From: Flaccisagitta enflata
Taxonomy: Eukaryota
DNA: 64,000 nt
Assembly (NCBI GenBank): GCA_965153355.1
Contig: OZ231126.1
Span: 13,082,001-13,146,000 of the forward strand
Reading direction: 5' to 3'
Shown here in pieces: positions 691 to 62,071 of this stretch. The position numbers were made by a program, and so were the translations under genes. The notes under the pieces are model-generated. The model was given only the letters and a program-made list of their open reading frames with translations, was not told where the DNA came from and made no database searches. How positions within the stretch are numbered: the stretch's first letter is position 1; every line of letters begins with the position of its first letter.

Positions 691-10598
<9,908 letters not shown>

Positions 10599-12820: not shown

Positions 12821-17882
<5,062 letters not shown>

Positions 17883-25912: not shown

Positions 25913-27562
25913 TCTTCTCCTTTTCTCCCAGCAATCACGACGTTTTTCCCACGGCGATTAGCCGCCTTTATTGGTAACATTTTGTCTCAAAAATGGTAGT
26001 CCTTTAAGCACTTTAGAAAAAAATGCATGTTTTGTAATCCTGTAGTAAAAAGTGGTATCTCTACCGCAAGAAAGTAGCAGATTATGAATCTATGATTGAT
26101 TTTCCTTAAGTCCATGAAGGAACCGCACAAATTTATGATGATTGGTTGAAAATGATGTTTGGGCAATTATCCCATCTGATAATTGAAGGAATTGATTAGA
26201 ACGAGGTGAGGGCCAAGTCATAACGAGTAATGCATTGTTCTTTTCAAGTCATAAAATCTGCAACGCATATACTGTTTTTTTTTTCAGAATCAGAATATTT
26301 TTTTTCATTTGAAAGATTTAAGATTTCATTCGTGTCATTTAGAAACAAAACCATACTGCAGTATACTGAAGAGCCGTGTCAGTCAAACAAAAAAATCGGC
26401 ACAAGATTCATTTTACTTATTTAACCTTTACTACCCTTGTTTAAGATGGAAAAATCATATTGTTGTAGCTTACCCGTTTAGGAGCAGCCGTTCTCTCAAA
26501 CTGCTGCGAATTTTAGAAGAGAAGCTATGCCACCTTTGCCACTGTCTTATTTTGAAGGCTTAAGCAAAGGTTAGTAGGCTGAATCTTTAATAGATGGTGG
26601 GTCAGTTGTTAGGTCCTTAGGTTTTTATCATCACAGGCTGATTTCAACTGTACATGACGAGGATTATTGTTTTAGTTTTAGTTTTAGTTTTAGGCAAAAG
26701 CGGCGTTTGTGAAGTTTTTATTTGCTCGAATGTCGCAGGGGATTTGTTTCTTAATAGAATGTTAGCACACGTCTTCCAAACTTTTGAGTCGTTCCTTTAT
26801 AAGTGAGTTCCACAAATTCAAAGGACAGATTCCAACGCTTCGTAAGCATAGACTAGTATCGTTTTGGTAAATGCAATTCAAAGGTTCATCAAGGTAACAT
26901 ATTAGTGAGGGCTCACTAGGCCCTCTTCCATATTTATCAGTTTGGGTATAGTGAGGGATATTGTTCCACTTGTCATTACAAACAATTTGATAATTCTGCA
27001 CAGCTATCAGTGACGCGGTCAGGATCCCCGTTCAAAATATCCTGAAAAAAATGTACCATTCCAATCTTTTAGAATCAGAATATGATATTCATTTAGGTCA
27101 AACTTGAGCTTGAGCCAAAAACTGCTATTTTTGCAATGAATTTTGTGTTTCATTCAGTATTTTTAACATTTTGGTTGTAAAACTGCTGATAGTAACTGAA
27201 CTAATCATATCTTGGAATTGGTCTATTGGTCCCAAAATGGAATTGAAAACCTAAAAAGTGAAAAAAAGACCCAAGAATAGAAAAATCCTTAGAAGTAATC
27301 ATTTAGAACTATTTCTCACAGCAAAATATACATTAGCTATGAATTTCATTGATCCAATATGAGAAACATACATATTACAAGCGATTATGAAAAACCGCTG
27401 TATGCAAATAAGATCTCATTAGCATATTGTGGTTATTCGTTTTTCGCTCATTACATGCATGTTTTTCACAGTAGATCAATGAGATTGATAGTACGTATAG
27501 ATTTTACCTATAAAAATTGATCCATTTGATTGGTTTTGTGGATTTTCTTATTTTTGACTGAC

Positions 27563-28158
27563 TTTTTGGGCAGCGGCCCCGAAGGGGACAAAGTCCTGTA
27601 GAACACAGGGGACTTTCATTCGTTCGTTCGTTCGTTTGTCCGTTTGTTCGTCCCCCCCTCATCCGGCTCTCAGGCCTCATATTTGGCCTCTGAGACCTCA
27701 AATCTGGCCTCTCAGGCCTCAAATCCAGCCTCTCAGGCCTCAAATCCAGCCTCTCATGCCTCAAACCTGGTCTCTCAGGCCTCAAATTGGGCTTCTCAGG
27801 CCTCAAATTGGGCTTCTCAGGCCTCAAATCAGCTATCTAAGCCTCAATTTATTGCTCTCAGGCTCCAAATCAGCCCTCTGACCTTTCAAGCCTGAATCCA
27901 GCTCTCTCAAGCCTCAAGTCAGCCCTCTCAGGCCTCTCAGGCCTTACATTAGCCTTCTTAGACCTCGGTTTAGGCTCTTAAAGGTCTCTATAGCATCTCA
28001 TCTACTTCTTCAGGCAGGACAAACATAAGTCCCCCTGTGTTCTACAGGACTTCGTCCCCTTCGGGGCCGCTGCCCTGCTCCCCCTCACTCCAATTCACAA
28101 TCACTTAAAGCAGGGCAACGGGTATCGCTGACCACATATTGCCCTTGGGCGACCTGTT
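27563..28158 (+). mobile_element. HINE-like element, family A (full copy, shorter internal array)
   Basis: Ends nearly identical to 3735-4565; fewer 21-bp units. Confidence 0.75.
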
Positions 28159-37859: not shown

Positions 37860-39390
37860 TACACAGTTTTCTCCAAATGTGTGTCACACAACCAAATTTT
37901 TTTCTGAATGTGTGACATTTTACAACCAGATTTTCTCAAATGTATTTACAACCCAGTTTCTCCCGAAGTGTGTGTCACACAACCCAATTTCTCAGTGTGA
38001 CACATAACCCAGTTTTCCCCAAATGTGTCCTACAATAGTTTCAAATGTGTCTGGCCAATTTTTCTCCAAATGTGTCTATACAACCCCAGTTTTCTCTAAA
38101 TGTGTCAAACAACCAAGTTTTTCCTGAATGTGTCACAGACCACAGCACTACTCGAATGTGTGTCACACAGCCTAGTTTCTCCATTGTGTGTCACACAATT
38201 TTCTCTAAATGTGTCCACTGTGATTTTCACTCCGACCTATGTGTCACACAGCCGAAATTTCTCTGATGTATTATCATCAGTTTTCTCTGAATGTGTATCA
38301 CTGAAAGCCAGATTTTATGTTTACATAACCCAGTTCTATAAATGTGTCTGCAGCCTAGTTTTATCAGAATGTATGTTTCACAGCTTAATTTTCTCTGAAT
38401 GTGTGTCACACAAACTAGTTTTCTCCAAATGTGTGTCACACAGGCTAGATTTCTCCGAATGTGTGTCACACTTCTTAGTTTTCTCCAAATGTGTGTCACA
38501 TAGACTAGTTTTCTCCGAAAGTGTGTCACACTGCCTAGTTTTCTCAGAATGTGTGTCACTGTGACTAATTTTCTCCGAATGTGTGTTACATAGCCCAGTT
38601 TTCTCCAAATGTGTGTCAGACAGACTAGATTTCTCTGAATGTGTGTCGCACAGCCTAGCTTTCTCCAAATGTGTGTCACACAGCCTAACTTTCTGAATGT
38701 GTGTCTTTATTACATTTTCTCTGAATGTGTGCACACAGCTAGCTTTCAGTGTGTGTCACACAGCCTAAGCTTTCCCTGAATGTGTGTCACACAGCAAGTT
38801 TTCTCCATTGGCCTATCATATAACAGTTTTCTCCAGATATTGTGTGAAACAGCAGTTTTCTTTGAATGTGTCCTTACAGCTAATTCTCTGATGTGTGTCA
38901 CACCTTCTTTCAAATGTGTGTCACACAGCCCAATTTTCTCATTGTCACCTGTAGTTTCTCCAATGTGTGTTACACAACCCAGTTTTCTCTGAATGTGTGT
39001 CTCACAACCCAATTTTCTTGGATGTGTTACACAGCAATTTTCTCTCAAATGTGTGTCACACAGCCCAGATTTCTCGACCTGTGTCCATGACTGAATTTCT
39101 CCATTGTGTGTCACACCTTCAGATTTATCCATTGTGTCACATAACCAGTTTTCTCCAAATGTGTGTCACACAAGCAGTCTTTTCTGAATGTGTGTCACAT
39201 GATCTTTCTGAATGTGTGTCCTTTGTAGTCTTTTCAATTGTGTGTCTGCCAGAACCTAGTTTCTCCATTATGTGTCACACAACCTAGTTTTCTCCTGATG
39301 TGTGTCACTCAGCCCAGTTCTCTCTGATGTGTGTCACACAACCTAGTTTCTCTGAATGTGTGTCACTGGCAGTTTCTCAGTGTGTGTCGC
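37860..39390. repeat. 30-bp minisatellite (gtgtgtcacacagcctagttttctccaaat), about 1.5 kb
   Basis: Regular 30-bp period at about 38390-38700, with indel-rich flanks. Confidence 0.92.
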
Positions 39391-39691: not shown

Positions 39692-40252
39692 AACAGGTCG
39701 CCCAAGGGCAATATACGGTCAGCGATACCCATTGCCTGCCATTGCATGGTGTAAGTCGGAATGAGAGGAAGCAGGGCAGCGGCCCACCGCGGGGACAAGA
39801 ATACAACAGAAGATATGGGGACTTGTTTGTCGTTCATTACGTTTCCATCTGTCTGTCTGTCCATCTGTCTGTCCGTCCGTCCGTCTGTCCGTCTGTACCC
39901 CCAGCCCTTTTCAGGCAGGAAATCACCTTACTCCAGGCCCTTGAATCTGCCCTCTCCAGGTGACCTGAGTCAGGTCTGAAATTTTTTTTTTTTTTTTTTT
40001 TAGAAATTTTCTTCCTGGATTCCTGCCCGTCCAAGCCTTGAATATTAGAGGGCAGATTTAAGGCCTGAGAGGGCGGATTAGAGGCCTGAAAAGGCAGATT
40101 TAAGGCCTGAGAGGGCACATTCAAGCCCTGAGAGTGCAGATTTCAGGCTTGAGAGGGCCTGAGGGGGACAAACAAACGGATAAACAAACGAACGAACAAA
40201 AGTCCCCTTTGTTCTACAGGACTTTGTTCCCTACGGGACCCCTGCCACAAAA
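39692..40252 (-). mobile_element. Diverged family A HINE-like element just downstream of the Kelch-fusion gene
   Basis: Tail aacaggtcgcccaagggcaata, subTIR remnants and 21-bp units. Confidence 0.65.
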
Positions 40253-40334
40253 GCCTGGATGGAACAAACCGTCCACCATGCAGCAATGAGGTTCCTATGC
40301 AATGAAAAACGCAAACAATTTTAGCAGCGCAATT

Positions 40335-43300
40335 CTAGAAACGAATATTTAAAAGAGCCATAGCATTGGGGTGGTGTAGGCTGACAAAATATCCCCCCAC
40401 GCAAAGGATGGAGGCGCTATCTTCATCGGGAACATGGATGGCTGTATGATAAAATAGTCCTCCATTTTCACAGACTGCGGCAGGAAGAGGCGTTTCCTCT
40501 CTCCATTTTGTGTCTTTGACATCAAATATCATGACTTTGTTTGAACCGCCTTGCTTCGTTTGACCACCGATGAGAACCAATTCTCTCTCAGAAATTTTGG
40601 TGAGCGTGTGTGCACATATTCCTTCATGGAATCCTGTGTTGGCGATTTCCGTCCACTGCATCGTTCGCAAGTTCAAAGCGTGGAAGTCGTTGAATTGTTG
40701 TCCCGCACAATAACCACCATGAAAGTCGTTGAACCATCCACCATGAATGAAAACATTTTCTCCGATAAGCATGCAGCCAAAAGCATAACGAGGTTTTGGC
40801 GCGGCGCCGGTGGTGTGGACAAGAGTGTACGTATTGGTTGCTAGATCGAAGTGGTGTAGATCATTGCTGTAAAATAGTTCGTAGGTTTTGTTTTTGTTCC
40901 AGGCAACCAAGTCTTTTTTCGTTTCTTCGTCAGTTTCTTTTTTGACGCCAGCGAAGAAGTAAATTTTATGATTGAACAACCAGGTGCCTTGAAAGAACCT
41001 TGGAGCTGGAACATCGCCAATTGGATGAATCCTTTCAAATTTGCCATCAATGGTAAGTGTTGAGAAGGCGTTGGTGACAGAGACAGGGTTGCACTGGACA
41101 CCGCCCATCATATGGACGCTGTTGGCATAAACGGTAGAACCAACGTAAGTGCCAGCTGGATGTATTTCACCCGATACCCTCACTACTTTCCATACACCGA
41201 CGGGCGTCGATGGCAGTGGCAGTTGGTATGTGTAAATGATGTCTCTGGGGAGAGCCTCGCGTCGTCCACTAGTGACCTGATGACCACCCCAGAAGAGGAT
41301 TTGCCCATCCAAAACGGCACTGACAAATCCCATTCCGACAGGGATACGGGTTGCTGACTTCCATTCTCTTTGCGGAATTGGTGGCAACGGAATTGGCGCG
41401 CATTCGACGGAGGATATGACTGGCTCTGCAGAGAAAGGTTTCGTGAACAGCAAATTGTTAAATCGTCCGCGGTTGTCAGTGAAAGAAATGGAAGCGGCCA
41501 GGAATCTCGATGGAGAAAATCTCAATTTTAAGGGTTATGAAAAAAAAAATGGACCAAAATAATTCTTGAAAATGTAAGCCATAAGAACCCGTAATTCATT
41601 TGATCGTAAAAATTTCTCATATTTCTTTTTTTTTTTTTTTTTTCTATTGGCCTTTAAGGGCATAGACTGTTTCGGAGTGGTTTGAGTTTTTTACATGTCA
41701 TCAGTGATAAATTACCGTCTAATGAATGTAAACGATATCCATCTTCAGCAGTAAATCTTGCAGGATTGGGATACCCTTTGGTAGATAATTGAAGCCATAA
41801 ATGTGCGACAAAATGTTGGCAATTTGAGTTGGCAACGTGATATGGCTCCATCAGCTGACTCAATTTGCGCCCGTTAGGTCCTTTGTTTGAAACAGAAAGT
41901 GAAGATTTTCATGGGTTCGAATTCTAGAAAAACGGGAATCAGCTAAAAGAGGCTGCCTTAATGTTAAATGCCTTAGTGATAAAAATTTAAGTTCAGCAGC
42001 TTTATACATAGTATAAAAAAGTGTACCAGTAATGACGGCTATCACCGTGAGGAAAAAAGTTATAAGCATTGGTCACTTTTCACCAAGCTTTTATCTTCAG
42101 TCACTGCAAATTATTTTATTTGTTAATTCAAATCAAGAGCAATTGTATGTATTGATTGTACTGGAAATCAGAAAAAAGATAGGACCGAGCCAAATGAGTG
42201 AGATAAGCTAAAATGCTCAAAATCACTCAACCAGACAACCAGCTATGATCACTGATATGCTTTGTTGTATTTGCATGCTCACACGCACTTTTGAATGGTT
42301 GATTAAGCCATTGAAAATTGAAAAAACTAACTAAAATCTTAGACCATTTTGAAGCCCTTGAAAAACTCTTTCATTTGGCGCCAATCTGGTATCTCTATCT
42401 TTTTTCGTTTGGAAATGGCATTAGTTTGAGTAAAAATGTTGCCAAATTTGTTTTTGCAGTCCCTTTGAAAAGGTGCAAATTCAGCAAATGGTGTCTCCTT
42501 TCTCTGAAGCTCTAAACCGTTAAAGATACAGATCTGGGATTGGTCACAAATGAAAGATGATTTGAAAATCTTCAAAATCACTCTCTCTGTAAAATTTTTG
42601 TAATACTTTTTAAGTCAGTTTTATCATCAAATAAAAAGAGTACGTCTTTTTAATTTGCGATAGACTACTGGCAGTCAATGGGTGAAACATTTGTATTTTA
42701 AAATCAGAATAAAAGACTGAGCTAAATAAACTAGAATACTCAAAAACACCCACAGAGATGAGCAGCTATGCTCACTTATTTGCTTTCTTGAATTTGCTTG
42801 ATTAAACATGTATCAAAATATTTATTCAATTATCGCATTTGAAATCAGATAAAAAAAAAATGAGCTAAATGAGCTAGAACACTCAAAAACACCCTCACAG
42901 ATGAGCATCTATGCTCAGAAACATGTTTTCTCTTATTTGCATGCCAAAAAAAAAAACCCATGAATACACTCCTTTATTGATACTACACAAAATCATAAAA
43001 AATTGAAAAAAAAATCAATTAAAATTTTTTCCTAAACAAATCTTTAAAAATTCATAACTCAGAAGCATTTGTCATAGAATATTCTGCCTGGCGCCAAATG
43101 AAAGAGAATTATCAAATTTACTTACGCTATCAATTTCATTAGAGGGCTCATTCAGCCGGATGAGATTGTCAACGTTCCCATAAGAAAATAATAACCATGT
43201 TTCTCTGGAATATGTCAAAAAGTCGAAGACTGACTTCGACTTTTTTGCCGACAAATGAAAACCTTATTAGATCTACTTCATCGAGAAATATCTACATGCT

Positions 43301-43834
43301 GCGTCATTCACTAACTCCACTTGGAAAAACAGACTCAAAGTTTCACTTTCCCTCTCTACCTTTGTCATTCAACCAGGAGAGTAAGTCCAGAACCGTCGCA
43401 TCTTTCGGATAAAGCTCTGTGACAATTCGCTCCAATGATTTGAGCTTGTCTCGTTCTTTTCCGTTTCTTTGATGACGAATAATTGGTTTTTCTTCAGGGT
43501 TGCTTCTGCGGCACGACTGAAGAAGGATGCATTCTTGCCCCTTCTCGAGCGTGAAATATTCCCCCGACTTGGCTTCCATTTCGACGATGTGGTGTGACAA
43601 GGCATGGTCAGTCGCCTTGAACGGAACGAAAGCTTTAACGGGAAGGTCGATCTTGAAAGCGCTCACTTTGGTTATCTTCGAGCGAAGAGGCGAGTTGGTT
43701 GGCGCGGCGAAGATGCCGGTGTTTACATTCAGGACGTGAGAGAGATCGGAAAAGAATTCGTATCTAGCGTGAACTTCAGTGCCTTCATATTGGACGTAAA
43801 GGAGCTTTGACTGCCATAATCCACCAGTTGCCAT
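40335..43834 (-). CDS. 576-aa protein: N-terminal putative permuted papain-like (PPPDE/LRAT-like, His...NCQHF) domain fused to a 6-bladed Kelch beta-propeller. Exons (-): 43834-43360, 41880-41716, 41425-40335
   Basis: Two phase-1 introns: AAAG|gtagag...tttctgtttcaaacaaag| and GACG|gtaatt...ttctctgcag|. Spliced length is 1731 nt with no internal stop. Kelch blades: QILFWGG, VHMMGG, IYFFAG, VFIHGG, LVLIGG, ILCVGG, plus PAPR/PKPR motifs. N-terminal part has SHHIVE, FTLEK and YHVANSNCQHF. The Kelch exon is well supported; the joining of the exons is inferred. Confidence 0.8.
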
Positions 43835-44379
43835 AATTGGTACTGTTAGATGCTGTAACCCACAGTCAGGAAAACGATTTTGTCAATGATAGTTTACGTA
43901 ATAGATTTTCAGATCGACCCAGACTGCTGCATAGTTTGATGAGGCACGCCGAAAAAACGGGTTCACGGAGTGGAAGATCCGCTTCCTGGGCGCTTGTATT
44001 TCTGGTTTTTATTCGCAGCCTACCGGAATGCCAGCCGTTGAACAAATAAAAGACATATTGTATAGGTTCATGGATTAATTTCGAGATTTCTTTTGAATCA
44101 GTTGATAGAGGAAGTTGAGATTCCTTTTTGCCACCGTGATAAAAGATATTCCCAATTTACGTGTAAATTGGCTCCTCATTGTGTTAAAATGTGATTTCAG
44201 GACATGTGCCCATAATGAAGTAATCCCATCGTGTTCAGTTTCCTCGGAATTTACGTGCCAAGGGCCCAAGGGTGTATAAAGTTTAGTGGCTTTTGATTTC
44301 CCCATCCAAACCCGTTGATACATAATTTAATGTCCCCCCAACGGAGGAGGGGGTGGAATACTCAAATTTTTATGCACCT

Positions 44380-44750
44380 GCATTGACTCCGTCAACTCAC
44401 CTTTAAAGACTTTAAGCACTGTGCAGGCTTGTGAAAACTCAGTTCAATCCCTTTGCGCACTTCACTACATTGACTCACCTTTCAGCATTGTGTAGGCATG
44501 GAGCATTTTAGAATCTAATCAACTCATCTATGAGCACCGTACAAGCGTGTTATGATTCAATTAACTCATCTTTGAGCACTGAGCATGCGTAAAAGTTGAC
44601 TCACATTCAGCACTGTGTACGTAGGTGATTTATGACTCAGTTAACTCATCTTTGAGCATTATATAGGCGTATCGTATCCCAACTGAGTCAGTTAAACTGA
44701 CTACCTTTTCACCATTGTGTAGACGTGTTTTGACTCAATTGACTCACCTT
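44380..44750. repeat. Degenerate tandem repeat, units of roughly 40-55 bp
   Basis: Recurrent tgactcagttaactcatctttgagcactgtg variants. Confidence 0.65.
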
Positions 44751-59276: not shown

Positions 59277-61756
59277 GTTCAAAGTTCAAGTTTAAAGGTT
59301 CAATTTAGGGTTCAAAGTTCAAGGTTCAAAGTTCAAGGTTCAAAGTTCAAAGTTCAAGGTGCAAAGTTCAAGGTTCAAGGTTCAAAGTTTAAGGTTCAAA
59401 GTTTGAGGTTCAAAGATCAAGGTTCAAAGTTCAAGGTGTAAAAGTCAAGGTTCAATGTTCAAGGTTCAATGTTCAAGGTTCAAAGTTCAAGGTTCAAAGT
59501 TCAAGGTTCAAGGTTCAAAGTTCAAGGTTCAAAGTCCAAGGTTCAAAGTTCAAGGTTCAAAGTTCAAGGTTCAAAGTTCAAGGTTCAAAGTTCAAGGTTC
59601 AAAGTTCAAGGTTTAAAGTTCAAGGTTCAAGTTCATAGTTCAACATTCAAGGTTTAAAGTTCAAGGTTCAAAGTTCAAGGTTTAAAGTTCAAGGTTCAAA
59701 GTTCAAGGTTCAAAGTTCAAGGTTTAAAGTTCAAGGATCAAAGTTCAAGGTTCAAAGTACAAGGTTCAAGGTTCAAAGTTCAAGGTTTAACATTTAAGGT
59801 TCAAAGTTCAAGGTTCAAAGTTCAAGGTTCAAGGTTCAAAGTTCAAGGTTCAAAGTTCTAGGTTCAAAGTTCAACATTTAAAGTTCAAGGTTCAAAGTTC
59901 AAGGTTCAAAGTTCAGGGTTCAAAGTTCAAGGTTCAAGGTTCAAGGTTCAAAGTTCAAGGTTCAAAGTTCAGGGTTCAAAGTTCAAGGTTTAAAGTTTAA
60001 GGTTTAAAGTTTAAGGTTCAAAGTTCAAGGTTCAAGGTTCAAGGTTCAAAGTTCAAGGTTCAAAGTTCAAGGTTCAAAGTTCAAGGTTCAAAGTTCAAGG
60101 TTCAATGTTTAACATTTAAAGTTCAAGGTTCAAAGTTCAAGGTTCAAAGTTCAAGGTTCGAAGTTCAAAGTATAAAGGTCAAATTTAGGGTTCAAAGTTC
60201 ACAAAGTTCAAAGTTCAAGGTTCAATGTTTAAGGTTCAAGGTTCAAAGGTAGAAAGTTCAAGGTTCAAAGTTTAAAGTTCAAAGTTTGAGGTTCAAAGAT
60301 CAAGGTTCAATATTCAAGGTTTAAAGTTCAAGGTTTAAAGTTCAAGGTTTAAAGTTCAAGGTTCAAAGTTCAAGGTTCAAAGTTCAAGGTTTAAAGTTCA
60401 AGGTTCAAAGTTCAAGGTTCAAAGTTCAAGGTTCAAGGTTCAAAGTTCAAGGTTTAAAGTTCAAGGTTCAAAGTTCAAGGTTCAAAGTTCAAGGTTCAAG
60501 GTTCAAAGTTCAAGGTTCAAAGTTCAAGGTTCAAAGTTCAACATTTAAAGTTCAAGGTTCAAAGTTCAAGGTTCAAAGTTCAGGGTTCAAAGTTCAAGGT
60601 TCAAAGTTCAAGGTTCAAAGTTCAAGGTTCAAAGTTCAAGGGTTCAAAGTTCAAGGTTTAAAGTTCAAGGTTCAAAGTTCAAGGATCAAGGTTCAAGGTT
60701 CAAAGTTCAAGGTTCAAAGTTCAAGGTTCAAAGTTCAAGGTTCAAAGTTCAAGGTTCAATGTTTAACATTTAAAGTTCAAGGTTCAAAGTTCAAGGTTCA
60801 AAGTTCAAGGTTCAAAGTTCAAAGTTTAAAGGTCAAATTTAGGGTTCAAAGTTCACAAAGTTTAAAGTTCAAGGTTCAATGTTTAAGGTTCAAGGTTCAA
60901 AGGTAGAAAGTTCAAGGTTCAAAGTTTAAAGTTCAAAGTTTGAGGTTCAAAGATCAAGGTTCAAAGTTCAAGGTTTTAAAGTCAAGGTTCAAAGTTCAAG
61001 GTTTAAGGTTCAAGGTTCAAAGTTTAAGGTTCAAAGTTCAAGGTTCAAGGTTCAAGGTTCAAGGTTCAAAGTTCAAGGTTCAAGGTTCAAGGTTCAAAGT
61101 TCAAGGTTCAAAGTTCAAGGTTCAAAGTTCAAGGTTTAAGGTTCAAGGTTCAAAGTTTAAGGTTCAAAGTTCAAGGTTCAAAGTTCAAGGTTCAAAGTTC
61201 AAGGTTCAAGGTTCAAAGTTCAAGGTTCACAGTTCAAGGTTTAGAGTTTAAGGTTCAATGTTCAAGGTTCAAAGTTCAAGGTTCAAGGTTCAAGGTTCAA
61301 GTTCATAGTTCAACATTTAAAGTTCAAGGTTCAAAGTTCAAGGTTCAAAGTTCAGGGTTCAAAGTTCAAGGTTCAAAGTTCAAGGTTCAAAGTTCAAGGT
61401 TCAAAGTTCAAGGTTCAAAGTTCAAGGTTCAAAGATCAAGGTTTAAAGTTCAAGGTTCAAAGTTCAAGGTTCAAAGTTCAAGGTTCAAAGTTCAAGGTTC
61501 AAAGTTCAAGGTTCAAAGTTCAAGGTTCAAAGTTCAAGGTTCAAAGTTCAAAGTTCAAAGTTCCAGGTTCAAAATTCAAGGTTCAAAGTTCAAGGTTCAA
61601 AGTTCAAGGTTCAAAGTTCAAGGTTCAAAGTTCAAAGTTCAAGGTTCAAAGTTCAAGGTTCAAGGTTCAAAGTTCAAGGTTCAAAGTTCAAAGTTCAAAG
61701 TTCCAGGTTCAAAATTCAAGGCTCAAAATTCAAGGCTCAAAGTTCAAGGTTCAAAT
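59277..61756. repeat. Satellite of 7-bp units (AAGGTTC/AAAGTTC; 14-bp dimer), about 2.5 kb
   Basis: Direct reading. Confidence 0.98.
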
Positions 61757-62071
61757 CTTTATAAAAAGTAAAAAAAGTAAAAAGGGGACGGACGGACGGA
61801 CGGAGAGAGGGACGGACCAACATAGCGGAGTATAGAGTCCCGTGCACGCGACTAAAAACTGCGATCCTCCTCTTCACTTACAATCTTTCCCTTTACTCTC
61901 TGATGAAACGGTGCATGTAAACCCGCAAACCCAAATGCCCCTAGGCTACACAAAGACTTTGAATTTCCAAGATCATTTTCTCTCCCTCTCCTTCTTGGAT
62001 ACCAAAGCCAGGCCTCCCATTTTTGACTGGAATGACTCAACGCGGTCACCGGTGAGCTGGATTAAGGAAGC

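What the first reader, a model, noticed from the sequence alone, without database searches (positions are those of the whole stretch)
40335..43834. Hidden three-exon gene fusing a putative permuted papain-like Cys hydrolase to a Kelch propeller
Seen: three separate ORF-track entries splice in phase into one 576-aa protein. The first roughly 210 aa contain SHHIVE (H81/H82), FTLEK (E97) and YHVANSNCQHF (C179). A Pro-rich linker (APIPLPPIP) follows, then six Kelch blades, with no BTB, F-box or SOCS/BC-box evident. Known: His-before-Cys order with a Y-x5-NCxHF motif characterises circularly permuted NlpC/P60 papain-like enzymes (PPPDE/DESI isopeptidases, LRAT/PLAAT acyltransferases), and Kelch propellers are substrate-binding modules. 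Inference: a self-targeting peptidase, deconjugase or acyltransferase with its own substrate receptor. I do not recognise this architecture from any characterised protein, but cannot confirm novelty without a search.
Basis: partly seen in the sequence, partly recalled or inferred. Interest (0 to 1): 0.8.

Follow-up and report, generated by a model that had tools for sequence, protein, structure and literature searches.

The report
PPPDE-like hydrolase possibly fused to Kelch
A gene in what looks like a marine eukaryote encodes a PPPDE-type cysteine hydrolase that may be spliced onto a Kelch propeller, an unusual pairing that still has no transcript evidence.

Summary
The sequence facts hold. 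Three minus-strand exons (43834-43360, 41880-41716, 41425-40335) have GT-AG borders. Both introns are phase 1. The exons join into 576 codons with one terminal stop.

Residues 1-213 belong to an unnamed eukaryotic family. It has 63 cluster representatives; the 20 I looked up all lie on short unnamed ENA/Logan contigs. It carries the PPPDE His-Tyr-Cys centre (H81, Y172, C179, Y-x6-C spacing). A confident model of a 59%-identical homologue best matches DeSI/PPPDE (Z 8.0), TseH and CLN5. The exon 1-exon 2 join fits the family profile without a break.

Exon 3 is a six-blade Kelch propeller closest to KLHDC2. It has no Cul2/BC-box tail, and the two arginines that hold the C-degron carboxylate are W444 and Q457.

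The fusion itself is unproven. No relative carries Kelch. The closest complete homologue ends exactly where exon 2 ends. Read-through would give a family-typical 233-aa protein. The RNA data gave no test. In its favour, the Kelch exon has no start codon before its first blade, has the strongest acceptor, and is in phase. I put the fusion at about 0.5.

The parts
43360..43834 (-). Exon 1 (475 nt, residues 1-158 plus the first base of codon 159). It holds the N-terminal beta extension and the His strand of the PPPDE-like domain.
   Evidence: ATG and donor read. 63 relatives found with this exon. Family members start at the same Met.
43592..43594 (-). Codon of His81, the proposed catalytic base. 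It matches the nearly invariant H85 of the family alignment.
   Evidence: Equated with PPPDE1 His38 by motif and strand position, which is inference.
41881..43359 (-). Intron 1 (1479 nt, phase 1, GC 0.33). It is filled with repeat copies.
   Evidence: The repeats are heavily matched by marine metatranscriptome contigs.
41716..41880 (-). Exon 2 (165 nt, residues 159-213 plus the first base of codon 214). It holds Y172 and the NCQHF motif with Cys179.
   Evidence: Pfam Peptidase_C97 at E 0.0012 and LRAT at 0.15 on this exon alone. Joined to exon 1 it fits the family HMM over residues 2-207, 250 bits.
41819..41821 (-). Codon of Cys179, the proposed nucleophile. Tyr172 is at 41840-41842.
   Evidence: Nearly invariant Y176/N182/C183/F186 in alignment A1. 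The Cys sits at the start of helix 183-194 in the homologue model.
41426..41715 (-). Intron 2 (290 nt, phase 1, GC 0.34). If it is not spliced, the frame runs 20 more codons to TAA at 41654-41656 and gives a 233-aa protein.
40335..41425 (-). Exon 3 (1091 nt including the TAG). It encodes a Pro-rich linker (residues 214-234) and a six-blade Kelch propeller (from W235, codon 41361-41363, to F576).
   Evidence: Pfam PF24681 at 6.3e-38. KLHDC2 is the best PDB match at 5.6e-21. The database fragment P0078 is 56% identical over the last 129 residues and ends 2 residues later.

Best explanation
This is a eukaryotic protein-coding gene on the minus strand.

Exons 1 and 2 encode a catalytic domain of about 210 aa. 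[quoted passage not shown] I infer a thiol hydrolase mechanism. Cys179 sits at a helix N-terminus and is activated by His81 on a beta strand. Tyr172 is the polar third residue, as in PPPDE1 and CLN5. The family-invariant Glu97-Lys98 lie on the neighbouring strand. The enzyme would form an acyl-thioester intermediate and release either an S-acyl group (thioesterase/depalmitoylase) or an isopeptide-linked modifier.

The most likely full product (about 0.5) also includes exon 3, which adds a Pro-rich linker and a KLHDC2-derived six-blade Kelch propeller. That propeller has lost the Cul2/BC-box tail and the two carboxylate-clamping arginines. It would therefore act as a binding or targeting module for the enzyme, not as an E3 receptor for Gly-Gly ends.

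Shown here: the exon structure, the domain identities, the motif conservation and the exon 1-2 join. Inferred: the catalytic roles, the substrate class, the exon 2-3 join and the role of the propeller.
For: Gene model:
- Canonical GT-AG sites, both introns phase 1, 576 codons with one stop.
- Exons are 42-48% GC and introns 33-34%.

N-terminal domain:
- 63 relatives at E <= 0.001, 30 at <= 1e-10.
- In the 42 I aligned, E101 and K102 are invariant. H85, Y176, N182, C183 and F186 are at least 90% conserved (P0005 numbering).
- Peptidase_C97 matches 34 of 42 at E <= 0.1. 3 of 34 are above the curated cut-off, and 1 of 34 is above the LRAT cut-off.
- The AF2 model of P0005 has pLDDT 88.7 and pTM 0.86.
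- Against 48,161 chains, the top rows are 2wp7 deSUMOylase (Z 8.0, rmsd 3.3, 117 aligned), TseH (7.3), CLN5 (5.3), Aichivirus 2A (4.5), a cysteine peptidase (4.5) and PLAAT4 (4.2).
- Y172-x6-C179 has the spacing of PPPDE1 Tyr101/Cys108.
- The joined exons 1+2 fit the family HMM over 2-207 at 250 bits.

Fusion:
- The Kelch frame is open for 399 codons but has no ATG before Met245. The canonical W...P strand (W235-P242) lies upstream of that Met.
- Its acceptor has the best polypyrimidine tract of the gene.
- It lies 290 nt downstream on the same strand and in the matching phase.
- 10 of the 40 relatives that carry the Cys motif have C-terminal extensions of 83-376 aa. Four of them have three hydrophobic segments. 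So this catalytic head often carries a variable C-terminal module.
Against: - No relative carries a Kelch tail. The longest of the 63 is 550 aa and its tail is Ser/Thr-rich. Pfam listed no Kelch family among the 42 scanned; the 21 not scanned are at most 174 aa, too short to hold a propeller.
- The closest complete homologue, P0005 (59% identity), ends 34 residues after the Cys. That is exactly where exon 2 ends.
- Reading through the exon 2 donor gives 233 aa. The tail of 54 residues after the Cys is inside the 15-61 range of the 30 stand-alone relatives.
- There are no spliced reads. The one RNA-library contig on a coding part (X1, 250 nt, no mismatch, 41695-41944) is colinear with the genome across both borders of exon 2.
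- The exon 2 donor matches 7 of 9 consensus positions and the exon 1 donor 6 of 9.
- Fold evidence is by proxy, from a homologue. Z 8 is in the range the tool calls common, and Foldseek found nothing at E <= 0.001.
- The window's own exon 2 scores 19.2 bits against the Pfam cut-off of 29.2.
Confidence: 0.5

Rival explanations
1. There are two products. A two-exon, stand-alone PPPDE-like protein of 233 aa ends by read-through at TAA 41654-41656, like most of its family. The Kelch exon belongs to another transcript, which would have an unrecognised 5' exon or alternative promoter, or would be spliced-leader trans-spliced onto the acceptor at 41425 with translation from Met245. The short and fused forms could also coexist as isoforms.
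For: - 30 of 40 relatives with the Cys motif are stand-alone, with tails of 15-61 aa.
- P0005 stops at the exact position of the exon 2 end.
- No relative has Kelch: none of the 42 scanned, and the other 21 are at most 174 aa.
- The exon 1 orthologue cluster (89% identity, 5 contigs) is in the database, but no Kelch-exon relative of 199-634 aa was found.
- A script lists 153 ATG-started, stop-free stretches ending in a phase-1 GT between 41426 and 47000. Among the printed top 25 by donor match, those with a donor match of 7/9 or better, apart from exon 2's own donor, lie upstream of exon 1 (donors at 44161, 44479, 46910 and 46967).
Against: - Among the printed top 25, no candidate 5' exon with a donor match of 7/9 or better lies between exon 1 and exon 3, apart from exon 2's own donor; the listing was cut at 25.
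- The best-scoring donor (9/9, at 44479) sits inside a degenerate tandem repeat.
- A start at Met245 would drop the W235...P242 strand expected to close the propeller. This rests on knowledge of the Kelch motif, and the AF2 model of the exon was too poor to test it.
- Only 290 nt separate the two parts, which leaves no room for a promoter outside the upstream gene.
- No canonical AATAAA or ATTAAA occurs in intron 2 (read by eye).
Confidence: 0.35
2. The Kelch ORF is an unexpressed, recently retroposed or decaying KLHDC2-like copy that happens to lie downstream of a two-exon PPPDE-like gene.
For: - The whole propeller is in one exon.
- It has no ATG and no Cul2/BC-box tail.
- The degron-clamp arginines are replaced.
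- Depth is zero over 40327-41469 in all four runs laid.
- A repeat element starts within about 100 nt of the stop.
Against: - 399 codons are open.
- Six intact blade motifs are present.
- P0078, a fragment from another organism, is 56% identical over the last 129 residues with the same C-terminal motif, and its stop is 2 residues later. This points to a conserved protein that naturally ends there.
- GC3 is 0.47, like exons 1-2 at 0.49.
- There is a strong in-phase acceptor.
- The zero RNA depth is no test, because exon 1 has zero depth too.
Confidence: 0.1

Closest known systems
PPPDE / DeSI enzymes (Pfam Peptidase_C97, PF05903; PPPDE1/DESI2 3ebq, PPPDE2/DESI1 2wp7)
   Same: - Permuted order, with His before Cys.
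- His-Tyr-Cys centre with Tyr seven residues before Cys.
- Best structural match, Z 8.0.
- Top Foldseek row is 3ebq.
- Best Pfam family for 34 of 42 relatives.
   Different: - Most members fall below the Pfam cut-off. The window's exon 2 scores 19.2 against 29.2 bits, and only 3 of 34 relatives pass.
- There is an extra N-terminal beta extension of about 55 residues (strands 17-35 of the model).
- The family has its own invariant Glu-Lys pair, and Gln in NCQHF.
- In this gene there is a possible Kelch tail.
CLN5 (6r99), the PPPDE-like cysteine S-depalmitoylase
   Same: Permuted papain-like core with a His-Tyr-Cys centre (PMC9012467, abstract and passages). The structural match is Z 5.3 over 132 residues, spanning residues 4-205 of the model.
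   Different: - Only 11% identity in the structural alignment.
- CLN5 is a glycosylated lysosomal protein with additional domains.
- No sequence-level match was found here.
LRAT / PLAAT (HRASLS) acyltransferases (PF04970)
   Same: - NCxHF motif around the Cys.
- These are the only PDB sequence hits of the family profile, at E 0.55-0.95 on that motif.
- PLAAT4 matches at Z 4.2.
- 1 of 34 relatives passes the LRAT cut-off.
   Different: - Gln replaces Glu in the motif.
- The second His, which I recall as 12 residues after the first, is not present. An invariant Glu lies 16 residues after it instead.
- This protein has no C-terminal membrane anchor.
- Exon 2 scores E 0.15.
KLHDC2, the Kelch substrate receptor of CRL2 for Gly-Gly C-degrons
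   Same: It is the best PDB sequence match of exon 3, at E 5.6e-21, aligned 34-307 to 35-307. Pfam PF24681 scores 130.7 bits against a cut-off of 50.
   Different: - The protein ends with the propeller, with no roughly 45-residue C-terminal tail, and no BC-box pattern was found (the pattern is recalled).
- Arg236 and Arg241, which bind the degron carboxylate (PMC12169847 passage), align to Trp444 and Gln457.
- An 8-residue insertion lies between them.

Membership tests
PPPDE / Peptidase_C97 (PF05903) | Score above Pfam's curated cut-off (29.2 bits) | tested here: inconclusive
   The spliced protein could not be handed to the tool. Exon 2 alone scores 19.2 bits and exon 1 scores nothing. Of 34 relatives, 5 match at E <= 1e-4 and 3 exceed the cut-off.
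PPPDE / Peptidase_C97 (PF05903) | Permuted His ... Tyr-x6-Cys catalytic centre (PPPDE1 His38, Tyr101, Cys108; PMC9012467) | tested here: met
   H81, Y172 and C179 are present. The matching columns are at least 90% conserved in 42 relatives. The spacing of 7 equals that of PPPDE1.
PPPDE / Peptidase_C97 (PF05903) | Permuted papain-like fold, with Cys at a helix N-terminus and His on a beta strand | tested here: met
   Tested by proxy on homologue P0005 (59% identical over exon 1). The model has pLDDT 88.7, C183 starts helix 183-194 and H85 starts strand 84-92. The best match is 2wp7 at Z 8.0. The His-Cys distance could not be measured.
LRAT / PLAAT (PF04970) | NCEHF motif plus a second His on the next strand, and the Pfam cut-off of 24.3 bits | tested here: not met
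   Exon 2 scores 12.8 bits, E 0.15. The motif is NCQHF. The residue on the next strand is an invariant Glu. The position of the second His is recalled, not taken from a call.
KLHDC2-type Kelch propeller (PF24681) | Pfam cut-off and six blades | tested here: met
   130.7 bits against 50. Six GG blade motifs are present (and by eye). KLHDC2 is the best PDB match.
CRL2-KLHDC2 C-degron receptor | Arg236/Arg241 carboxylate clamp | tested here: not met
   In the phmmer alignment to the 406-aa chain 8ebn_A these positions are Trp444 and Gln457. The role of the arginines comes from a PMC12169847 passage.
CRL2-KLHDC2 C-degron receptor | C-terminal BC-box/Cul2-box tail after the propeller | tested here: not met
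   The ORF stops 55 residues after the last aligned position (KLHDC2 307 of 406). A BC-box regex found no match in the 576 aa (the pattern is recalled).
BTB-Kelch (KLHL) / F-box-Kelch | BTB-BACK or F-box domain N-terminal to the propeller | tested here: not met
   No such Pfam family appears at E <= 1 on any of the three exons.

The most novel reading that the evidence does not exclude
The fusion is real. A catalytically competent PPPDE-type thiol hydrolase is covalently tethered to a propeller that descends from an E3 substrate receptor (KLHDC2-like) but has lost both its cullin adaptor tail and its Gly-Gly clamp. A ubiquitin-ligase recognition module would then have been re-used to bring substrates to a deconjugating or deacylating enzyme. 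The event may have happened recently, by conversion of the ancestral stop position at the end of exon 2 into a splice donor. None of the 63 relatives, and none of the papers whose listings I saw, shows this architecture.
Probability: 0.3. Interest if true: 0.6.

Novelty: new variant of a known kind. Interest (0 to 1): 0.4.

Why it matters
PPPDE/DeSI enzymes are poorly understood. Their claimed activities range from weak deSUMOylation to S-depalmitoylation (PMC9012467).

This locus points to a separate clade that Pfam places, mostly below its cut-off, in Peptidase_C97. The clade is seen so far only on unnamed short contigs of ENA and Logan assemblies. It keeps the catalytic centre and attaches varied C-terminal modules such as membrane segments and disordered tails.

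If the Kelch tail is truly part of the protein, the propeller's ligand would be a direct handle on what such an enzyme acts on. It would also be a clean example of a ligase receptor domain re-used by a hydrolase.

If the fusion is not real, this is an ordinary pair of neighbouring exons from two known superfamilies.

Tried and rejected
- **Word-index protein searches.** Exon 1 against longer proteins found none of 181 candidates. Exon 3 at near lengths found none of 1255 candidates. Exon 3 against shorter proteins found 1 of 88, which was P0078.
- **Metagenome contig scans.** Exon 3 gave 168 pattern matches and exon 1 gave 114, none confirmed. No orthologous locus could therefore be inspected.
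- **Own genome and earlier findings.** Neither was available. tblastn found no paralogue in the window.
- **RNA.** 5 runs were listed and 4 were laid.
  - The poly-A raw-read run X5 laid 0 of 12,162,974 records, about 6% of the run, so it is no test.
  - The three metatranscriptome contig sets (994, 580 and 913 contigs laid) cover almost only the intron 1 repeats.
  - The joints listed lie inside those repeats and are not exon junctions.
- **ESM Atlas.**
  - With exon 1, scores were at most 0.82, to viral hypotheticals and SH3 proteins. I treated this as noise.
  - With P0005, the nearest clusters (0.94-0.95) are eukaryotic hypothetical proteins of about 200-226 aa. One cluster has Peptidase_C97 in 31% of members. 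These are leads only.
- **Structure and PDB searches.** Foldseek against the PDB found no match at E <= 0.001, although row 1 is PPPDE1. The family profile against PDB sequences found only PLAAT hits at E 0.55-0.95. AF2 of the Kelch exon with a 2-row alignment gave pLDDT 46.1, which is unusable for blade closure.
- **Upstream donor.** A perfect-consensus donor at 44479 with an upstream ATG was considered as an alternative first exon. I rejected it because it lies in a degenerate tandem repeat.
- **Literature.**
  - 'PPPDE' plus 'Kelch' returned 12 papers. The 10 listed are reviews or unrelated by title and abstract start.
  - 'NCQHF' occurred in none of the 10 papers listed out of 31.
Full report
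**Observation.**
- The minus strand between 43882 and 40335 holds three stop-to-stop open frames of 179, 84 and 399 codons.
  - The ATG is at 43834, with A at -3 and G at +4.
  - The first donor is AAAG|gtagag after 43360, and the first acceptor is caaacaaag|GA before 41880.
  - The second donor is GACG|gtaatt after 41716, and the second acceptor is ctttctctgcag|AG before 41425.
  - The TAG stop is at 40337-40335.
- The pieces are 475, 165 and 1091 nt. Both introns are phase 1, and the join gives 576 codons with a single terminal stop.
- Exons are 42-48% GC and the two introns 33-34%.
- The window has no second copy of any of the three exons (tblastn). No whole genome is held for it.

**The N-terminal domain is a real, conserved family.**
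- An exhaustive HMMER search with exon 1 found 63 cluster representatives at E <= 0.001. Of these, 30 are at <= 1e-10 and 5 at <= 1e-30.
- I looked up 20 of them. All come from ENA (18) or Logan (2) assemblies, on contigs of 720-3210 nt, and none carries a name.
- I aligned 42 of the 63, leaving out 21 fragments of at most 174 aa.
  - Two columns are invariant: Glu-Lys, which are E97 and K98 here.
  - Twelve are at least 90% conserved. They include the first His of the HH pair, the Tyr, and the Asn, Cys and Phe of Y-x5-NCxxF.
- Homologues such as P0005 (217 aa, 59% identical) run without a break across the position of intron 1. The window's exons 1+2, joined in a script, fit a profile of the family from residue 2 to 207 at 250 bits. 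I take the exon 1-exon 2 splice as supported by homology.

**What kind of domain it is.**
- Pfam sees only the Cys motif in the window's exon 2: Peptidase_C97 at E 0.0012 and 19.2 bits against a cut-off of 29.2, and LRAT at E 0.15.
- Across the family, Peptidase_C97 is matched by 34 of 42 members at E <= 0.1 and LRAT by 11 of 42.
- Of 34 members scanned at E <= 1e-4, five match Peptidase_C97 and three pass its cut-off. One also passes the LRAT cut-off, with an alignment covering both His and Cys.
- AlphaFold2 on P0005 with the 42-row alignment gave pLDDT 88.7 and pTM 0.86. The conserved Cys sits at the first turn of a helix and the conserved His at the start of a strand.
- Foldseek found nothing at E <= 0.001, but its first row is human PPPDE1 (E 0.084). 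TseH, the 2wp7 deSUMOylase and Aichivirus 2A also appear in the top nine.
- The Foldseek-independent search over 48,161 chains ranks the hits as follows:

| Chain | Protein | Z |
|---|---|---|
| 2wp7 | deSUMOylase | 8.0 (rmsd 3.3, 117 aligned) |
| 6v98 | TseH | 7.3 |
| 6r99 | CLN5 | 5.3 |
| 7zv6 | Aichivirus 2A | 4.5 |
| 3kw0 | cysteine peptidase | 4.5 |
| 7zot | PLAAT4 | 4.2 |

- The tool warns that Z of 7-8 is common for models without a clear match, so the fold match alone is weak. It gains weight because the six named proteins, out of the top seven rows, are all cysteine enzymes of the permuted NlpC/P60 kind. That classification comes partly from PMC9012467 and partly from my own knowledge.
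- The motifs agree as well. PMC9012467 (abstract and passages read) describes the PPPDE centre as His38-Tyr101-Cys108 in PPPDE1 and His166-Tyr258-Cys280 in CLN5. Here Tyr172 is likewise seven residues before Cys179.
- The same paper reports S-depalmitoylase activity for CLN5, PPPDE1 and PPPDE2, and only weak SUMO or ubiquitin cleavage.
- I could not measure the His-Cys distance because no coordinates are returned.

**The Kelch exon.**
- Exon 3 matches Pfam Kelch_KLHDC2_KLHL20_DRC7 at 6.3e-38, plus several other Kelch models. It has six GG blade motifs (plus IHGG by eye).
- Of 19 PDB sequences at E <= 0.001, the seven best are all KLHDC2, at 5.6e-21 to 1.1e-20.
- In the alignment to full-length KLHDC2, Arg236 and Arg241 correspond to Trp444 and Gln457, with an 8-residue insertion between them. 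These two arginines hold the carboxy terminus of the diglycine degron (PMC12169847, passage read).
- The protein ends with the sixth blade and has no BC-box-like pattern (the pattern is recalled). It is therefore a KLHDC2-like propeller, but not a CRL2 C-degron receptor.
- The only database relative found is P0078, a 131-aa fragment. It is 56% identical over the last 129 residues and stops two residues later. This suggests that ending at the propeller is ancestral for this Kelch lineage.
- AF2 on the exon with a two-row alignment gave pLDDT 46 and cannot be used.

**Is it one gene?** This is the open point.

In favour of the fusion:
- The Kelch frame has no ATG until Met245. The canonical Trp...Pro strand that normally precedes the first blade (W235-P242) lies upstream of it. 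The exon therefore seems to need an upstream coding exon.
- Its acceptor is the best splice signal of the locus.
- It lies 290 nt downstream of exon 2, on the same strand and in the matching phase.
- The intervening stretch has intron-like composition.
- 10 of the 40 relatives that carry the Cys motif have C-terminal extensions of 83-376 aa, four of them with three hydrophobic segments. A variable C-terminal module on this catalytic head is therefore normal for the family.

Against the fusion:
- No relative has a Kelch tail: none of the 42 scanned matched Kelch, and the other 21 are at most 174 aa.
- 30 of the 40 are stand-alone, with 15-61 residues after the Cys.
- The closest complete homologue ends 34 residues after the Cys, which is precisely the exon 2 boundary.
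- Without the second splice the frame closes after 20 more codons, giving a family-typical 233 aa.

RNA evidence was sought but gave no test.
- Of five runs offered, four were laid.
- The poly-A raw-read run laid no read, with about 6% of the run read.
- The three marine metatranscriptome contig sets hit almost only the repeats of intron 1.
- Depth over exons 1 and 3 was zero in all runs.
- One 250-nt contig identical to the window (41695-41944) is colinear with the genome across both borders of exon 2. It is therefore unspliced RNA or DNA.
- The five contigs of the 89%-identical exon 1 cluster all read into intron 1 as well.

A script listed 153 ATG-started open stretches ending in a phase-1 GT between 41426 and 47000. 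Among the printed top 25 by donor match, none between exon 1 and exon 3 reaches 7 of 9 donor matches, apart from exon 2's own donor. The only perfect donor, at 44479, lies in a degenerate tandem repeat. Because both introns are phase 1, skipping exon 2 would also stay in frame.

**Verdict.**

| Claim | My estimate |
|---|---|
| Domain assignments and exon 1-2 structure are correct | about 0.9 |
| Exon 3 is spliced to exon 2 in at least one transcript | about 0.5 |
| Separate products | about 0.35 |
| Unexpressed Kelch copy | about 0.1 |

- The idea that the propeller delivers substrates to the hydrolase is inference only.
- The catalytic domain is a new, mostly sub-threshold member clade of a known superfamily.
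- The fusion, if real, is a new variant. I did not find it among the relatives or in the paper listings I saw. No architecture database could be queried.

Noticed in passing
window 41978-43250 (intron 1): There are three diverged copies (70-80%) of a repeat of about 93 nt, plus a 68-nt inverted pair. Marine metatranscriptome contigs match the same stretch at summed depths in the thousands, mostly at 90-95% identity. This looks like a transposon or MITE family that is abundant and transcribed in marine plankton samples.
   Followed up: partly
window 13064-17586, minus strand: Exon-like ORFs match Pfam Aminotran_3 at profile positions 4-33, 209-235 and 287-377. One piece is above the cut-off, at 38.1 bits. 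This is a multi-exon class-III aminotransferase gene, GABA-transaminase-like by eye. One ORF runs into a long run of Asp and Met codons, which is a microsatellite.
   Followed up: partly
window 39983-40250, and similar stretches near 3400-5990, 8441-8990 and 27504-27836: A recurring element starts about 100 nt after the Kelch stop and ends in an A-run of about 21. Look-alike translations recur across the window in the ORF list. It is probably a SINE-like repeat in the 3' region.
   Followed up: no
window 44400-44700 and 38100-39300: Degenerate tandem repeats. One unit in the first block mutated into a perfect splice-donor consensus at 44479. The second block gives long repetitive ORFs on both strands.
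   Followed up: partly
window 60325-61835, plus strand: A long tandem array gives a repetitive 'SSRFKVQG'-type reading in several frames. It is satellite-like, and no Pfam search was run on it.
   Followed up: no
proteins P0038, P0041, P0049, P0064 (relatives, not in the window): Four members of the PPPDE-like family carry a C-terminal tail with three predicted hydrophobic segments. This suggests membrane-anchored versions of the enzyme, which would fit a lipid or S-acyl substrate.
   Followed up: partly
window 41623-41641, minus strand (intron 2): A genomic run of about 18 A lies just after the read-through stop codon. It could cause internal priming in poly-A libraries and mimic a 3' end there.
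   Followed up: no
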